Below are positions 1,839 through 5,584 of a stretch of 5,746 nt of DNA, in pieces. Under the pieces are notes generated by a model that did not search any database, was not told where the DNA came from, and saw only the letters and a program-made list of their open reading frames with translations. The position numbers were made by a program, and so were the translations under genes. Source of the DNA: a virus (Duplodnaviria > Heunggongvirae > Uroviricota > Caudoviricetes); the IMG/VR virus record IMGVR_UViG_2671180814_000012. One strand, written 5' to 3'. The first letter of the stretch is position 1. Each line of letters begins with the position of its first letter.

Positions 1839-2903
1839 TCACCCCCTGAATCCCGGCGGAATTTCGGTATCCGGTTCAGAAATATGATTCACACAACGCT
1901 GGTTGTTCGTGCCGCTTACCGGGAGCAACCAGGGGTTTTCAAAATTCCGGTCCGGCCCAAAAAACGTCGTCGCTCGCTGAACAAATTCCGTTCCCGCTTT
2001 CCCGGTCGCCGCCAGGTATCTCGCGTAACGCCTCACACCATCCAGCATGGTCTCTGGTGGCACCCCCTCGCGCAATCTGGCCTTCCAGGCACTGAATGCG
2101 GATTTCTTCGGGTTTGCCCCGGCACGCAACGGGTATTCCCGCCAGACCTGTTCGAACACATCCGGATAATCCACTCGTCCCACAGGCTGCCCGGTGTTTT
2201 CCGGGGCTACCCGATCGGCTTCCCGCTGAATGGCGGAATCGGCTTCAGGCTGCTGCAGTTGGAGTGATTGCTCCGGCCTTGCGGTCATCACCTGCTGCAC
2301 AGCGCCCGAATCGGCTTTCAGCGCATACGCTGAATCGGCTTCCGGTGTCGAGCCTGCTGGCTGACCAGGATTGACGGTCTGAACATCCCCTGCCTGGTTC
2401 GTGGCGTTTTTTACGCCATGGACCATAGTGTTTTGATCTTCTTTATCTGTATCTTTATCTGTATCTGTCGTGACTCGTCGTGACATGTGCGTGACATTTC
2501 GTGACGCGCCGTGACAATCGCCATTTTGTTCCCGCTTTCTTTCCCTCTCTCGCTGCGCCCTCTTGCGCTCTGCAGGAGATTTTGCGGTTTGCGAAATATT
2601 GCCGTTGTCCTCTTTAAGCACCTGGCGTTTTTCCCATCCAGTGATTAAATCACCATCAAGTACCCGCCCCTGCATCGTCTGCAAAATTGAATCAATTACC
2701 TCTTCTGTCACGTCGAGCGCACTTGCCAAATCTTCTGTCGTGACATCAATGTGACCTCGCGTGACATTTCGTGACGCGCTCACCAGGAGGTGGATATACA
2801 CTGCCATCACTGTTGCAATTGGCTGCCCTGACACCCTGGCAATTGTTCGCCACTTAGGGTCATTTGGCATGTCATGCCATAATCTGAGCCAGGCGTTAGC
2901 CAT
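1839..2903 (-). CDS. Phage replication initiator (lambda O-like functional position) with internal origin iterons
   Basis: About 354 aa from ATG at 2903, preceded by GAGGTG about 5 nt upstream (track ORF begins at GTG 2909). Located between the CII-position gene and the DnaC-like gene. Contains two clusters of phased CGTGAC repeats, as lambda O contains ori. Basic and acidic low-complexity linker (RKRAQRERERKREQ, TDTDKDTDKED). Confidence 0.7.
   Translation of the reverse strand: MANAWLRLWHDMPNDPKWRTIARVSGQPIATVMAVYIHLLVSASRNVTRGHIDVTTEDLASALDVTEEVIDSILQTMQGRVLDGDLITGWEKRQVLKEDNGNISQTAKSPAERKRAQRERERKREQNGDCHGASRNVTHMSRRVTTDTDKDTDKEDQNTMVHGVKNATNQAGDVQTVNPGQPAGSTPEADSAYALKADSGAVQQVMTARPEQSLQLQQPEADSAIQREADRVAPENTGQPVGRVDYPDVFEQVWREYPLRAGANPKKSAFSAWKARLREGVPPETMLDGVRRYARYLAATGKAGTEFVQRATTFFGPDRNFENPWLLPVSGTNNQRCVNHISEPDTEIPPGFRG
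2440..2463. repeat. Tandem 12-bp direct repeat tctttatctgta x2 (with a partial third copy tctgt), adjacent to iteron cluster 1
   Basis: Read directly: 2440-2451 and 2452-2463 are identical. Locally AT-richer than the surrounding gene. Encodes the acidic DKDTDKD stretch of the initiator on the minus strand. Confidence 0.8.
2469..2515. repeat. Iteron-like array 1: five CGTGAC copies phased at about 10-11 bp (candidate replication origin inside the initiator gene)
   Basis: CGTGAC begins at 2469, 2479, 2490, 2500 and 2510, roughly one helical turn apart. Lies in the middle (linker) region of the O-like CDS. Confidence 0.65.
2739..2779. repeat. Iteron-like array 2: four (C/T)GTGAC copies phased at about 10 bp, including a 21-bp exact duplicate of part of array 1
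   Basis: CGTGAC at 2739, 2760 and 2770, TGTGAC at 2750; an inverted copy TGTCACG at 2706-2712. gcgtgacatttcgtgacgcgc occurs at 2489-2509 and again at 2759-2779, exactly 270 bp apart. Confidence 0.6.
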
Positions 2904-2974: not shown

Positions 2975-3400
2975 TCAATGTACTGCCACAGCATTTCCTG
3001 CCGGGCCACCACGGTTCATCTGATTGAAACCGGCGATTGCCACTGCGACAAAATCATCAGCGTCTCTCACCAGTCGTTCATGCGTCTCCACCAGTTCCCG
3101 AAAATAAGCTGAACTGTGGCTGCGCATTCGAGCCACCAGCGGAGGTGGCATTGCCCTTTCGATCGCAGGTAACAACGCCTGAATTTTTTCAACAGCGTCA
3201 GGGGTGTCTTTATCCAGCCAACGGAAAATCTTTTGGGTGTTGAGATAAAGCGTGTTGTGCTTGCTGTCGTTATGCAGAACCGGAAACGTCATTCCCAGTT
3301 CGAAATAAACCCTGGTTATTTCAGCTGCCGGAACTTTTTCACCGTCCGGATGCGCCCAGGCTTTCATCGCCATGCGGATGTGTTCATGCTTGATTTTCAT
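2975..3400 (-). CDS. ydaT: CII-position regulator, YdaT-like (proposed functional analogue of lambda CII in Rac/CP-933P-type prophages)
   Basis: 141 aa starting MKIKHEHI.... ATG at 3400 preceded by GGGGGTGA. Its start overlaps the stop of the upstream Cro-like gene (ATGA at 3397-3400). Position between cro-like and O-like genes. Family name is from recall of Rac YdaT (about 140 aa), not from a search. Confidence 0.6.
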   Translation of the reverse strand: MKIKHEHIRMAMKAWAHPDGEKVPAAEITRVYFELGMTFPVLHNDSKHNTLYLNTQKIFRWLDKDTPDAVEKIQALLPAIERAMPPPLVARMRSHSSAYFRELVETHERLVRDADDFVAVAIAGFNQMNRGGPAGNAVAVH

Positions 3401-3660
3401 GAATCACCCCCCGCCGATGGTTGTGTGTTAGCCTGAAACTCAGCAGGCAAGCCGTCAGTTGGGTTGGGGTAGGTTTTACTGTCAATCTCATGTGGGGTCA
3501 CCACCCATCCCGTTGCTTCACACCAACGTAATATTTTTTCTCCTGTAAGTTTTGCACGCCCCGTTATAACGTGGCTGACCATCCCTTGGGATGCGCCAAC
3601 AATCTCAGCAAATGAACTCTGGGTTATATGAAAATGATGCAAATATTCTCCAAGATTCAT
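3397..3660 (-). CDS. ydaS: Cro-like HTH transcriptional regulator (YdaS/Cro-CI family), first gene of the early-right-equivalent operon
   Basis: About 87 aa from ATG at 3660 (MNLGEYLHHF...), preceded by AGGGCGG; the track ORF extends to a TTG at 3687. Candidate HTH segment SFAEIVGASQGMVSHVITGRAKLTGEKILR. Divergent from the repressor gene across an operator-containing intergenic region. Confidence 0.65.
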   Translation of the reverse strand: MNLGEYLHHFHITQSSFAEIVGASQGMVSHVITGRAKLTGEKILRWCEATGWVVTPHEIDSKTYPNPTDGLPAEFQANTQPSAGGDS

Positions 3661-3696: not shown

Positions 3697-3759
3697 AATA
3701 GCACTGTTATTTTTAAAAGTAAATAGTGATGCTATTTCAAAGTGATTAGCAATCTTATT
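3697..3759. promoter_or_regulatory. OR-like operator region: three 15-bp dyad-symmetric sites between the divergent repressor and cro-like genes (expected to overlap PR/PRM-type promoters)
   Basis: Sites at 3697-3711 (aatagcactgttatt), 3722-3736 (aatagtgatgctatt, near-perfect palindrome) and 3745-3759 (attagcaatcttatt, weakest). Centre-to-centre spacing is 25 and 23 bp. Half-site consensus AATAGY / GCTATT. A candidate minus-strand -35 TTGAAA sits at 3740-3735 with a poor -10; promoter hexamers are not confidently assignable. Confidence 0.6.
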
Positions 3760-3771
3760 AGAATTGGATGT

Positions 3772-4272
3772 ATGAAAAGAAAATCATTGTCAGACACCGA
3801 CCTCAACGCCGCCAGAAGACTGAAAGAAATCTGGATGGCAAAGAAATCTCAGTTGGGATTGACTCAGGAACGTGCGGCGGAAATTATGGGGTTTTCAACA
3901 CAAGGGGCGGTAAGTCACTACCTAAATGGTCAAACCCCACTAAACCTTGAGGCTGTTCTAAAGTTTGCTGGCTTACTGAAAGTTCCCCCTGAGTCAATCA
4001 GGCCAGACATGGTAGATTTGCTGCAAATTGCAAGGATGTATTGTCGAGAACCACAGCAAGATAACATAGTCGCATTACCAGCAGACACAGAACAAACAGA
4101 GGATGAACTACCGTTTGCCGTAGAGCCGATGGAACGAGATTTAATCCATACGTTCAGAGCTTTTCCGAAAGAAGATCAAGAACACATGCTTCAGGAGATG
4201 AAAGATAAAAAAGAATCAATGGATCGTACGGTTGCGCGGTGGTTAGCTGCACAAAAAGGCCGTCGCGCCTAA
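3772..4272 (+). CDS. paaR2: Prophage repressor with a lambda CI-like N-terminal HTH domain and a short acidic C-terminal region lacking a LexA/S24 peptidase domain (RacR/PaaR2-like)
   Basis: From ATG 3772 (MKRKSLSDTDLNAARRLKEIWMAKKSQLGLTQERAAEIMGFSTQGAVSHYLNGQ...), 166 aa. This aligns by eye with the lambda CI N-terminus (...[41 protein letters not shown]...). The track ORF starts at GTG 3742, which would run through operator site 3. No Ala-Gly cleavage site or Ser/Lys dyad context is recognisable. Symbol is recall-based and tentative. Confidence 0.75.
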   Translation: MKRKSLSDTDLNAARRLKEIWMAKKSQLGLTQERAAEIMGFSTQGAVSHYLNGQTPLNLEAVLKFAGLLKVPPESIRPDMVDLLQIARMYCREPQQDNIVALPADTEQTEDELPFAVEPMERDLIHTFRAFPKEDQEHMLQEMKDKKESMDRTVARWLAAQKGRRA

Positions 4273-4291: not shown

Positions 4292-4486
4292 ATGAGTACA
4301 GTCCTTTCCCCAATGGTTTCAGAATTTGAGACAGTTGAGCAAGAAAATAGTTACAACGAATGGCTGCGGGCCAAAGTAGCAGCAAGCCTCGCGGATCCCC
4401 GCCCGGCGATTCCGCATGATGAGGTAATGGCGGAAATGGAACAAATTATTGCCCAAATTGCTGCTGCAACTCACAGAGGTGAATAA
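4292..4486 (+). CDS. paaA2: Small type II antitoxin partnered with ParE (PaaA-like, ParE-associated antitoxin)
   Basis: 64 aa (MSTVLSPMVSEFETVEQENSYNEWLRAKVAASLADPRPAIPHDEVMAEMEQIIAQ...). AGGAG 8 nt upstream of the ATG. Its stop overlaps the toxin start (TAATG at 4483-4488). Size and partner match my recollection of the roughly 63-aa PaaA2 antitoxin of E. coli O157; unverified. Confidence 0.65.
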   Translation: MSTVLSPMVSEFETVEQENSYNEWLRAKVAASLADPRPAIPHDEVMAEMEQIIAQIAAATHRGE

Positions 4487-4776
4487 TGTTACCCGTTTTA
4501 TGGCTACCATCTGCTCGTGATGATTTGCGCCAGATCGTAGCCTACATAGCTAAAGAAAATCCCGCGGCAGCACGCAGAATGAAAATTCGAATTGAAACAT
4601 CCGTTTTGCCGCTCACAGAGCATCCTTACCTGTATCCTCCAAGCGAGCGAGTTCTTGGTCTTCGTGAAATTGTAACTCATCCTAACTACATCATCCTTTA
4701 CCGAGTAACAGCATCAAGCATAGAAGTAGTAAATATTGTGCATTCTCGAAGACAGTATCCAGGCAAAAACAGTTAA
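4486..4776 (+). CDS. parE2: ParE/RelE-superfamily toxin (ParE-family type II toxin)
   Basis: 96 aa. ParE-like pattern: N-terminal LPVLWLPSARDDLRQIVAYIAKENPAAARR and C-terminal YRVTASSIEVVNIVHSRRQYP (ParE consensus ...I.I.RVLH.R.D-like). Overlaps the upstream antitoxin by one base. Followed by an intrinsic terminator. Confidence 0.8.
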   Translation: MLPVLWLPSARDDLRQIVAYIAKENPAAARRMKIRIETSVLPLTEHPYLYPPSERVLGLREIVTHPNYIILYRVTASSIEVVNIVHSRRQYPGKNS

Positions 4777-4792
4777 TTATTCCCGCCGACAG

Positions 4793-4818
4793 AACCACCT
4801 TAGGGTGGTTTTTTCTTG
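4793..4818 (+). terminator. Rho-independent terminator closing the repressor-antitoxin-toxin operon
   Basis: Stem aaccacc (4793-4799) pairs with ggtggtt (4804-4810), loop ttag, followed by tttttctt (4811-4818), 17 nt after the parE stop. Confidence 0.7.
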
Positions 4819-4832
4819 CCCCAACAAAAAAC

Positions 4833-4875
4833 AATAGCGATGCTATTTACATCAAAAAAATAATGATGCTATTGT
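4833..4875 (+). promoter_or_regulatory. OL-like operator pair carrying the same dyad motif as the OR region, overlapping a candidate PL-type promoter reading rightward
   Basis: aatagcgatgctatt at 4833-4847 is a perfect 6-3-6 palindrome; aataatgatgctatt at 4859-4873; spacing 26 bp. Candidate -35 TTTACA (4846-4851) and -10 TATTGT (4870-4875) with an 18-bp spacer, both overlapped by the operators. Confidence 0.55.
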
Positions 4876-5054
4876 TTCAGGCGTCAACCCACCCCGCCCC
4901 ACAGAATGCAGGGCAATACTTCGAGTTACCAGACAGTGGTCAGGGGTTAAGTAGCCAGCCCGAGGCGTAAGAACATGACGGCAGGGTTCAATCTTTAACT
5001 ATGCAGCAGGTTTTTTGTTCCGCCACCCCGGCGTTAAGGGGAAATGAGGTCAGC

Positions 5055-5207
5055 ATGGATACTATCGATCTTGGCAACAACGAATCTCTGGTGTGCGGCG
5101 TGTTCCCTAACCAGGATGGAACGTTTACCGCCATGACGTATACCAAAAGCAAAACGTTTAAAACCGAATCTGGCGCGCGTTGCTGGTTAGCCAGAAACAC
5201 TGACTGA
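5055..5207 (+). CDS. Small hypothetical early-left protein, about 50 aa
   Basis: ATG at 5055 preceded by GAGG 5 nt upstream (MDTIDLGNNESLVCGVFPNQDGTFTAMTYTKSKTFKTESGARCWLARNTD). The track ORF begins earlier at 5001 without a convincing RBS. Stop overlaps the next ORF's ATG (TGATG at 5205-5209). Confidence 0.4.
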   Translation: MDTIDLGNNESLVCGVFPNQDGTFTAMTYTKSKTFKTESGARCWLARNTD

Positions 5208-5584
5208 TGAGGCTGACGATGGAATTTAAAGATTTACCGTCTGATGTACAGAAAACAGCAGCTCATACATTGCATTCTGTGCTGCGAGAAATCGGGAAAG
5301 ATATTGCAAGCGAGCCAGCAAAAGATCTGGCCCGGAAAATCAAGACCGCTTTCGTTGAGCTTTATAATGTTGGCACTGACTCTGAAACTGTCGAGACCAA
5401 GACCGTAAGTTCACCAATATTCTCACTTGAGCCAAGCGTATTATCAGGTGAAATATGCACCGAGATTTCCAGCGAACTGCTTCCGGTAATACGAGAAGCA
5501 ATTCGCCGTCGCGGTTTGGATGGAAGTTATGATCATGACGTTCTGCAAGTTCTCAGGACAATGGTGACTTCACTGGGGATTTGA
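5207..5584 (+). CDS. Hypothetical early-left protein, 121-125 aa
   Basis: Start either at 5207 (coupled to the upstream stop) or at 5219 (MEFKDLPSDVQK..., GAGG 8 nt upstream). Amino-acid composition looks protein-like; no recognisable motif. Confidence 0.5.
   Translation: MRLTMEFKDLPSDVQKTAAHTLHSVLREIGKDIASEPAKDLARKIKTAFVELYNVGTDSETVETKTVSSPIFSLEPSVLSGEICTEISSELLPVIREAIRRRGLDGSYDHDVLQVLRTMVTSLGI

What the first reader, a model, noticed from the sequence alone, without database searches (positions are those of the whole stretch)
4833..4875. Second copy of the repressor operator motif lies downstream of the TA module, so the TA pair sits inside the immunity region
The 15-bp dyad AATAGYGATGCTATT seen between the repressor and cro-like genes recurs twice at 4833-4873, right after the operon terminator, overlapping candidate -35 and -10 hexamers that face the downstream plus-strand genes. 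This is the lambda OL/PL logic, and it places the TA genes between the repressor gene and OL as fixed cargo of the immunity module rather than a random insertion.
Basis: seen in the sequence. Interest (0 to 1): 0.6.

Follow-up and report, generated by a model that had tools for sequence, protein, structure and literature searches.

The report
Left operator-promoter of a prophage switch
The repeated motif after the toxin-antitoxin genes is very likely the second (left) operator and promoter of a lambda-like prophage switch, a layout already shown by experiment in a sister prophage of E. coli O157:H7, so this is a new immunity variant of a known design and not a new kind of system.

Summary
The dyad, better written AATAGC-N3-GCTATT, has four strong copies in the window: two between the repressor and cro-like genes (3697, 3722) and two after the parE terminator (4833, 4859). 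The downstream pair brackets a -35 (TTTACA) and overlaps a -10 (TATTGT) that face ydfA.

All 49 loci with this repressor type show the same 2+2 pattern. Heteroimmune relatives replace the dyad at both places together with the repressor's DNA-binding domain. Homology between immunity types resumes at 4885, about where PL should start.

The window is a PaaR/PaaA/ParE three-gene module inside a Rac/Qin/CP-933P-like immunity region. Jurenas et al. 2021 showed for CP-933P that the equivalent fragment is a promoter (PL933P) repressed about 100-fold by PaaR2 and YdaS.

The new elements here are the immunity type (a lambda-cI-like N-terminal domain fused to a PaaR C-terminal domain) and its operator sequence.

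"Fixed cargo" is only partly right. paaA-parE accompanies the PaaR C-terminal domain in 60 of 61 Escherichia/Shigella-type loci (one deletion remnant), but relatives elsewhere carry HigBA, a HipA-like pair, an unknown ORF or nothing. Binding itself was not tested.

The parts
3390..3407 (.). YdaT (cII-like) type inverted repeat TTGATTTTCATGAATCAC at the cro-like/ydaT-like gene junction; candidate PRE activator site
   Evidence: 1 mismatch to TTGATT-N6-AATCAA, the motif reported for CP-933P YdaT (abstract of PMC9986795). Only suggestive statistically: 17 of 200 shuffles give at least 2 hits.
3397..3660 (-). cro-like (YdaS-type) HTH gene, transcribed from PR
   Evidence: ORF and weak HTH_3 match. 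Its 5' half lies in the immunity-specific non-homologous island.
3697..3711 (.). OR1-like operator AATAGCACTGTTATT, overlapping the inferred PR -10 (TATTAA, 3700->3695 on the minus strand)
   Evidence: (22.1 bits); conserved in all 49 same-type loci
3722..3736 (.). OR2-like operator AATAGTGATGCTATT. It overlaps the inferred PR -35 (TTTACT, 3723->3718, minus strand) and abuts the PRM -35. Its centre at 3729 lies about -42/-43 from the leaderless PRM start.
   Evidence: (22.3 bits); always 25 bp from the OR1-like site in 49 loci
3745..3759 (.). weak OR3-like candidate ATTAGCAATCTTATT over the PRM spacer and -10
   Evidence: fifth-best PWM hit, 10.0 bits, 9/12; weaker still in the 78-80% subclades. 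Tentative.
3736..3764 (+). PRM-like promoter TTCAAA-17-TAGAAT. The predicted start coincides with the repressor ATG at 3772, giving a leaderless mRNA.
   Evidence: invariant in 21 distinct OR sequences; leaderless paaR2 shown by 5' RACE and N-terminal sequencing in CP-933P
3772..4272 (+). repressor, 166 aa: lambda-cI-like N-terminal DNA-binding domain plus PaaR/DicA-type C-terminal domain, no S24 peptidase domain
   Evidence: residues 2-81 match lambda cI 3-81, E 3e-9; last 44 aa 52% identical to PaaR2, E 5e-15; DicA 29% over 51 aa; only HTH families in Pfam
4292..4486 (+). paaA antitoxin
   Evidence: PF21217 PaaA2, E 3e-23; PDB 3zbe PaaA2, E 1e-23
4486..4776 (+). parE toxin
   Evidence: PF05016, E 2e-17; PDB 5cw7 ParE2, E 7e-37
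4793..4814 (+). intrinsic terminator of the repressor-TA operon (AACCACC-TTAG-GGTGGTT followed by a U-tract)
   Evidence: -15.1 kcal/mol, z -3.3; a hairpin plus T-run at this position in every immunity type, with different sequences
4833..4847 (.). OL2-like operator AATAGCGATGCTATT, overlapping the first two bases of the PL -35
   Evidence: 23.6 bits; half-sites invariant across 30 distinct OL sequences
4846..4875 (+). PL-like promoter: -35 TTTACA (4846-4851), 18-nt spacer containing an A7 tract, TG, -10 TATTGT (4870-4875). It faces ydfA.
   Evidence: both hexamers conserved; same layout as PR on the other strand; positional homologue of the PL933P fragment tested by GFP fusion
4859..4873 (.). 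OL1-like operator AATAATGATGCTATT, overlapping the spacer, the TG motif and the PL -10
   Evidence: (19.9 bits)
4885..5054 (+). conserved leader of the PL transcript, shared by all immunity types; lies outside the immunity-specific DNA
   Evidence: homology to heteroimmune L009 and L056 resumes exactly at 4885 at 93-96%; no Rfam match; no excess folding energy
5055..5207 (+). ydfA-like gene (DUF1391), first gene of the early-left operon. In relatives this operon continues to dicB or kil and an exonuclease.
   Evidence: PF07151, E 1e-28; synteny

Best explanation
Window 4833-4875 is the left operator-promoter (OL/PL) of a lambdoid (Rac/Qin/CP-933P-like) prophage immunity region. Two 15-bp dyads (AATAGC-N3-GCTATT) overlap a sigma-70 promoter that fires rightwards into ydfA and, in relatives, on to dicB or kil and an exonuclease. 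One dyad sits on the -35 and one on the -10. The 166-aa repressor made from the leaderless PRM transcript binds these dyads as dimers through its lambda-cI-like N-terminal domain, as it does the two matching dyads at OR, and so blocks RNA polymerase at PL and PR. The cro-like protein probably uses the same sites. The PaaR-type C-terminal domain probably oligomerises, which would allow cooperative binding of neighbouring dimers and possibly an OR-OL loop across the 1.1 kb that holds the repressor and TA genes. paaA-parE is co-transcribed with the repressor and ends at its own terminator just before OL. It therefore occupies the lysogen-expressed slot that rexAB fills in lambda. What is shown here: the sites, their positions, their conservation and their covariation. 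What is shown elsewhere: promoter activity and repression of the homologous CP-933P fragment. What is inferred: binding by this repressor, cooperativity, looping and promoter strength.
For: Only four strong sites exist, in two pairs, against 0.23 expected. PL on the plus strand and PR on the minus strand are parallel cassettes: dyad, TTTAC(A/T), 17-18 nt, TG, dyad overlapping TATT(GT/AA). All 49 loci with this repressor type (77-100% aa identity) have exactly two sites at OR and two after parE. Across 30 distinct OL sequences the half-sites and both hexamers are invariant or nearly so, while the dyad centres and the spacer vary. Five immunity types share the repressor C-terminal domain and the TA pair but have different N-terminal domains. 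Each has its own dyad at both OR and post-parE positions. Shared words average 11.1 nt within a type against 6.9 nt between types, and 3 of 120 permutations reach the true pairing. Homology between types is lost over the terminator and OL/PL and resumes at 4885, about the predicted +1. The dyad follows the N-terminal domain outside this family. Stx2 phage F039 cI (52% identical N-terminal domain, same recognition helix) has AATAGTCTAGCTATT in its OR. L066 (N-terminal domain about 75% identical, different cargo) has the dyads at OR and around TTGACC...TATTGT 2.2 kb downstream. In the literature, the CP-933P fragment running from the parE2 stop to just before the conserved leader is an active promoter repressed about 100-fold by PaaR2 and YdaS, and PaaR2 is reported to octamerise (primers matched to L009). 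In K-12 Qin the DicA operator half-sites recur after dicA around TTGACC.
Against: No binding or transcription data exist for this repressor or this fragment. PL has an imperfect -35 and -10, and an 18-nt spacer in this window. Only two clear OL sites were found, against three reported for CP-933P and lambda. Looping and oligomerisation rest on 52% identity over 44 residues to PaaR2. The covariation statistic is modest for two of the five types (L007, L008), whose A/T-rich dyads cross-match.
Confidence: 0.85

Rival explanations
1. The downstream dyads are auxiliary looping anchors only. They help repressor oligomers repress PR and tune PRM through an OR-OL loop, but there is no functional promoter at 4846-4875.
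For: PL hexamers are imperfect and the spacer is 18 nt here, ranging from 16 to 20 among near-identical loci. PaaR2 is reported to octamerise.
Against: The -35 and -10 are conserved in every locus and every immunity type and always face the early-left genes. The homologous CP-933P fragment is an active promoter. The early-left genes have no other obvious promoter.
Confidence: 0.05
2. The sites control a leftward antisense promoter (TTGACG-16-CATTAT, 4887->4860) that reads back into parE and modulates the toxin-antitoxin pair.
For: The promoter scan reports this minus-strand site with 9/12 matches, and it overlaps the 4859-4873 dyad.
Against: In the other subclades of the same immunity type these hexamers degrade to TTGATG or TGATGA and TACTAT or TGCTAT with a 15-nt spacer. 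Promoter-like hits in this region are near the shuffle expectation (4 found against 2.4). The terminator hairpin lies directly in its path.
Confidence: 0.04
3. The repeat is a non-functional relic of recombination between OR-like sequences, or operators used by the PaaA-ParE complex for classical TA autoregulation.
For: Lambdoid immunity regions are mosaic. Many type II TA complexes bind palindromes.
Against: A relic would not keep invariant half-sites while centres drift, nor covary with the repressor N-terminal domain in five types. The sites lie downstream of the TA genes, not at their promoter. PaaA2 has no DNA-binding domain. The same dyads occur in loci that lack paaA-parE altogether.
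Confidence: 0.03

Closest known systems
paaR2-paaA2-parE2 immunity region of cryptic prophage CP-933P / Sp12, E. coli O157:H7 (Jurenas et al. 2021, PMC8630535)
   Same: Same gene order: ydaT, ydaS <- OR -> leaderless repressor, paaA, parE, terminator, OL/PL, conserved leader. The repressor C-terminal domain is homologous (52% over 44 aa), as are PaaA and ParE (E 1e-23 and 7e-37 to the solved structures). The fragment tested as PL933P is the positional homologue of window 4777-4884.
   Different: The repressor N-terminal domain is unrelated: lambda-cI-like with an N-terminal arm, 166 aa against 123 aa. The operator differs (AATAGC-N3-GCTATT against GTTTAGT-type repeats). Two clear OL sites are seen against three reported. 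No experiments exist for this type.
Phage lambda cI-rexA-rexB / OL-PL
   Same: Divergent PR/PRM with repressor dyads. A candidate activating site lies about -42 from a leaderless PRM. Accessory genes are co-transcribed with the repressor and end at a terminator before a second operator set that overlaps a promoter for the early-left genes. The repressor N-terminal domain is homologous (E 3e-9).
   Different: There is no S24 autocleavage domain, so RecA-type induction is not expected. The operator is 15 bp, not 17 bp. OR-OL distance is 1.1 kb, not 2.4 kb. No N/nut system was recognised downstream. The cargo is a ParE toxin-antitoxin pair instead of RexAB.
DicA/DicC and the dicB operon promoter of cryptic prophage Qin (E. 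coli K-12)
   Same: Same downstream operon (ydfA...dicB) and part of the same leader. The DicA C-terminus is weakly homologous. DicA operator half-sites recur after dicA around a TTGACC -35.
   Different: Qin has no cargo between the repressor gene and the left promoter. Its N-terminal domain and operator are different.
cI of Stx2-converting phage F039 (Oslovirus)
   Same: It has the closest N-terminal domain among sequenced phages (52% identity, recognition helix TQGAVSQLLN against TQGAVSHYLN) and an 11/12 match to the dyad in its OR. Cargo, here a restriction-modification pair, follows cI.
   Different: It is a classical 239-aa cI annotated as a LexA-family repressor, with a different C-terminal half. 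Its OL was not examined.

Membership tests
Lambdoid immunity region with OL/PL (lambda-type bipartite operator system) | Divergent repressor and cro genes separated by a short region that holds several copies of one dyad overlapping two promoters | tested here: met
   Two strong dyads and one weak dyad lie in 3697-3759, overlapping PR and PRM candidates.
Lambdoid immunity region with OL/PL (lambda-type bipartite operator system) | A second cluster of the same dyad beyond the repressor operon, overlapping an outward-facing promoter | tested here: met
   Sites at 4833 and 4859 overlap TTTACA-18-TATTGT. The arrangement is conserved in 49 loci and covaries in 5 immunity types.
Lambdoid immunity region with OL/PL (lambda-type bipartite operator system) | The repressor binds both operator sets and represses PL | not testable with these tools
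   Shown only for the homologous CP-933P fragment, with PaaR2 and YdaS.
Lambdoid immunity region with OL/PL (lambda-type bipartite operator system) | Immunity-specific DNA is bounded by DNA shared among heteroimmune relatives | tested here: met
   There are two non-homologous islands, 3472 to about 4140 and about 4734 to 4884, with homology resuming at 4885.
PaaR-PaaA-ParE three-component toxin-antitoxin module | PaaA-family antitoxin followed by a ParE-family toxin | tested here: met
   PF21217 and PF05016; PDB PaaA2 and ParE2 matches.
PaaR-PaaA-ParE three-component toxin-antitoxin module | An upstream co-oriented regulator with a PaaR-type C-terminal domain | tested here: met
   52% identity to PaaR2 over the last 44 aa, E 5e-15; alignment A1.
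PaaR-PaaA-ParE three-component toxin-antitoxin module | Regulator DNA-binding domain of the PaaR2 type | tested here: not met
   The N-terminal domain aligns with lambda cI, not with PaaR2. The window is a domain-swapped relative, not a paaR2 allele.
Lambda cI / LexA-like (S24) repressors | C-terminal S24 peptidase domain that mediates RecA-stimulated autocleavage | tested here: not met
   Pfam finds only HTH families. The protein is 166 aa and its C-terminal domain is homologous to PaaR2 and DicA.

The most novel reading that the evidence does not exclude
The interval between the repressor stop codon and the terminator/OL may be a dedicated, lysogen-expressed cargo slot of DicA/PaaR-type prophages that exchanges toxin and defence modules: ParE, HigB/PD-Lambda-2-like, HipA-like/PDC-M66, a possible small hydrophobic toxin, or nothing. 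In Escherichia the addictive paaA-parE pair may enforce co-inheritance of the two physically separate specificity islands (N-terminal domain plus OR, and OL). New immunity types could then arise only through matched double exchanges around the TA pair. The variable A5-A9 tract in the PL spacer may additionally tune PL strength.
Probability: 0.2. Interest if true: 0.5.

Novelty: new member of a known kind. Interest (0 to 1): 0.3.

Why it matters
It shows that the layout worked out for one O157:H7 cryptic prophage is general. The layout is a repressor, a co-transcribed ParE toxin-antitoxin pair, and then a second operator-promoter. It holds across at least five immunity types, and 842 of 5426 complete E. 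coli genomes match at least part of the block (72 carry this window's type in full). The work gives a precise, testable operator (AATAGC-N3-GCTATT) for an uncharacterised repressor with a lambda-cI-like DNA-binding domain. It also places the TA pair in the same lysogen-expressed cargo slot that holds rexAB in lambda and candidate defence systems in relatives. That is useful for annotating prophages and for finding cargo, but it does not change current understanding.

Tried and rejected
1. A genome-contig scan using the family alignment was wasted.
2. A summed 12-mer match score for OR against OL was blurred by A/T runs. It was replaced by longest shared words.
3. The leader at 4882-5054 was tested as a structured RNA or a known family. 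Rfam has no match and the MFE is no better than shuffles (z +1.3). I did not pursue a put-like or nut-like reading.
4. The minus-strand promoter-like hit at 4887->4860 was considered and set aside because it is not conserved.
5. A third OL site was sought with the PWM and none was found.
6. No sequenced phage in the INPHARED collection carries this repressor at full length, so no phage-level immunity data could be linked.
7. The structure-prediction and fold-search tools were not used. They would not have tested DNA binding.

Full report
**Observation**

The window holds four strong copies of one dyad and no others. AATAGCACTGTTATT is at 3697-3711 and AATAGTGATGCTATT at 3722-3736. Both lie in the 111-bp gap between a minus-strand cro-like gene (3397-3660) and a plus-strand repressor gene (3772-4272). 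AATAGCGATGCTATT is at 4833-4847 and AATAATGATGCTATT at 4859-4873. With up to three mismatches these are the only places hit. The expectation is 0.23, and no shuffle out of 200 reaches the observed count. A PWM built from 25 distinct sites in relatives scores the four sites at 19.9-23.6 bits. One weak fifth site scores 10.0 bits at 3745-3759, and nothing else exceeds 5 bits. The conserved core is AATAGC-N3-GCTATT.

**Context**

The minus strand carries:
- a DUF1627 gene;
- a DnaC/IstB-like loader;
- an O-like gene;
- a YdaT (cII-like) gene;
- the cro-like HTH gene.

The plus strand carries:
- the repressor;
- a PaaA antitoxin (PF21217; PDB PaaA2, E 1e-23);
- a ParE toxin (PDB ParE2, E 7e-37);
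- a hairpin terminator at 4793-4814 (-15.1 kcal/mol, z -3.3);
- the two downstream dyads;
- a 170-nt leader;
- a ydfA-like DUF1391 gene.

The repressor is a chimera. Residues 2-81 align with lambda cI residues 3-81, including the N-terminal arm (E 3e-9). The last 44 residues are 52% identical to PaaR2 of CP-933P (E 5e-15) and weakly similar to DicA. There is no S24 peptidase domain. The identical protein is annotated in Shigella sonnei.

**Anatomy**

On the plus strand, TTTACA (4846-4851), an 18-nt spacer, a TG motif and TATTGT (4870-4875) form a promoter-like site. One dyad overlaps its -35 and the other covers the spacer, the TG motif and the -10.

Read on the minus strand, OR has the same cassette: dyad, TTTACT, 17 nt, TG, then a dyad overlapping TATTAA. 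PL and PR are therefore parallel.

The PRM-like promoter TTCAAA-17-TAGAAT (3736-3764) would start transcription at the ATG at 3772. That gives a leaderless repressor mRNA, as shown by experiment for paaR2 and known for lambda cI. The 3722-3736 site is centred about -42/-43 from that start. From my own knowledge of lambda, this is the position of OR2.

**Conservation within the immunity type**

An IMG/VR scan and the E. coli collection gave 48 further loci with this repressor type at 77-100% amino-acid identity.
- All 49 loci, including the window, have exactly two sites at OR and two after parE. Only a few stray 10/12 matches occur elsewhere, inside an exonuclease gene.
- Across 30 distinct OL sequences, the half-sites, TTTACA and TATTGT are invariant or nearly so. 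The dyad centres and the promoter spacer vary.

**Covariation between immunity types**

In complete E. coli genomes, 72 carry the whole block. About 770 more share only the 3' end of the repressor gene plus paaA-parE. Sampling these gave four other repressor N-terminal domains fused to the same C-terminal domain. One of them is PaaR2 itself (L009, MQKKE...).

Each type has its own dyad, and in each the dyad appears both at OR and after parE, around a TTGAC(A/T) -35. Words shared between OR and OL average 11.1 nt within a type and 6.9 nt between types. With one representative per type, 3 of 120 permutations reach the true pairing.

Against the heteroimmune loci L009 and L056, homology changes along the window as follows:
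- it is lost from 3472 to about 4140 (cro N-terminus, OR, repressor N-terminal domain);
- it returns at about 76% over the repressor C-terminal domain and the TA genes;
- it is lost again over the terminator and OL/PL;
- it resumes at 93-96% exactly at 4885, about the predicted PL start.

The dyad also follows the N-terminal domain outside this family. Stx2 phage F039 cI has a 52% identical N-terminal domain and nearly the same recognition helix, and its OR contains AATAGTCTAGCTATT.

**What is already known**

Jurenas et al. 2021 (PMC8630535) reported the following for CP-933P:
- PaaR2, YdaS and YdaT act like CI, Cro and CII.
- PaaR2 and YdaS footprint the intergenic region.
- A promoter named PL933P, with operators OL1-3, lies beyond the TA genes.
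- A PL933P-gfp fusion is repressed about 100-fold by either protein.
- PaaR2 octamerises in solution.

Their cloning primers match L009 from the base after the parE2 stop to just before the conserved leader. The tested fragment is therefore the positional homologue of window 4777-4884. What is new is this immunity type and its operator.

**Fixed cargo**

Within the Escherichia/Shigella-type loci, 60 of 61 with a PaaR C-terminal domain have paaA-parE directly downstream. The exception, L010, keeps only a fused remnant, with the terminator and OL intact.

Elsewhere the same slot holds different contents, and no PaaA/ParE homologue is detectable in any of the five non-Escherichia loci below:

| Locus | Source | Slot contents |
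|---|---|---|
| L064 | Salmonella diarizonae | HigB/HigA, PD-Lambda-2-like |
| L066 | metagenome | HipA_2 plus DUF3037, PDC-M66A/B-like |
| L070 | Salmonella houtenae | unknown 112-aa ORF |
| L068 | Serratia | no long ORF |
| L072 | Morganella | nothing |
| L074 | K-12 Qin | nothing |

In each case an OR-type dyad reappears after the slot, around a TTGAC(A/C/T) -35. The TA pair is therefore a long-standing accessory in a recurrent cargo slot. It is not an intrinsic part of the switch.

**Mechanism and rivals**

The best reading (0.85) is an OL/PL-type repressor-controlled promoter for the early-left operon. The cro-like protein probably shares the sites, and cooperativity or looping through the PaaR-type C-terminal domain is possible.

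The rivals are a looping anchor without a promoter, an antisense promoter reading into parE, and a relic or TA-complex operator. All three are disfavoured by hexamer conservation, by the lack of conservation of the antisense hexamers, by covariation with the N-terminal domain, and by the presence of the dyads in loci without the TA pair. Binding, promoter activity and looping were not tested for this element.

**Verdict**

This is a new member (a heteroimmune, domain-swapped variant) of a known kind, and interest is modest.

Noticed in passing
window 4853-4859 (A7 tract in the PL spacer); compare L001, L012, L017, L018: Among loci with the same or a 99% identical repressor, the A-tract between the two OL dyads varies from A5 to A9. 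This gives -35/-10 spacers of 16-20 nt and dyad spacings of 24-28 bp, whereas OR spacing is always 25. It could be slippage that tunes PL, or homopolymer assembly error.
   Followed up: partly
L066 3001-3735 (protein P0018; also P0013-P0023): These repressors of 240-255 aa carry a window-type cI-like N-terminal domain followed by a complete second PaaR-type HTH plus C-terminal domain. They are tandem double-HTH proteins. They may be an intermediate on the way to the 166-aa chimera in the window.
   Followed up: partly
slot between the repressor stop and the terminator/OL: L064 3612-4339, L066 3787-5360, L070 3577-3915, L072 3400-3580, L074 2043-2110: The slot that holds paaA-parE here carries other contents in relatives: HigB/HigA (PD-Lambda-2-like), a HipA_2 plus DUF3037 pair (PDC-M66A/B-like), an unknown 112-aa ORF, or nothing. 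Stx2 phage F039 has a restriction-modification pair after cI.
   Followed up: partly
L068 3917-4000 (Serratia ureilytica): A 27-codon hydrophobic ORF (VNTGIALFIALLEFIVASLRLIGLLIK) with a strong Shine-Dalgarno sequence (GAGGGGGG) lies in the otherwise ORF-free cargo slot. It looks like a small membrane toxin of the type I kind. That resemblance rests on my memory only.
   Followed up: no
window 4885-5054: The leader of the PL transcript is 93-96% identical across heteroimmune prophages, and the region around it matches in 4493 of 5426 complete E. coli genomes. It starts with a C-rich, G-poor stretch (13 C and 2 G in 21 nt), has no Rfam match and shows no excess folding energy. Its function is unknown; a Rho-loading site is one idea.
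   Followed up: partly
window 2469-2515 and 2739-2775: CGTGAC is repeated five times at 10-11 bp phase and three more times about 270 bp away, inside the O-like replication gene. These look like origin iterons, as in the lambda O gene (cross-matches).
   Followed up: no
window 3390-3407: TTGATTTTCATGAATCAC has one mismatch to the published YdaT recognition motif. It sits at the cro-like/ydaT-like gene junction, where a PRE-like promoter was found in CP-933P.
   Followed up: partly
window 5219-5584: A 121-aa ORF after ydfA has no match in Pfam or PADLOC. It replaces ydfB/ydfC of some relatives.
   Followed up: no
L010 3156-3270 (E. coli CAU16175): An in-frame-looking internal deletion fuses the first 22 codons of paaA to the last ~19 codons of parE. 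The terminator and OL remain intact. This is a natural loss of the TA pair from the slot.
   Followed up: partly
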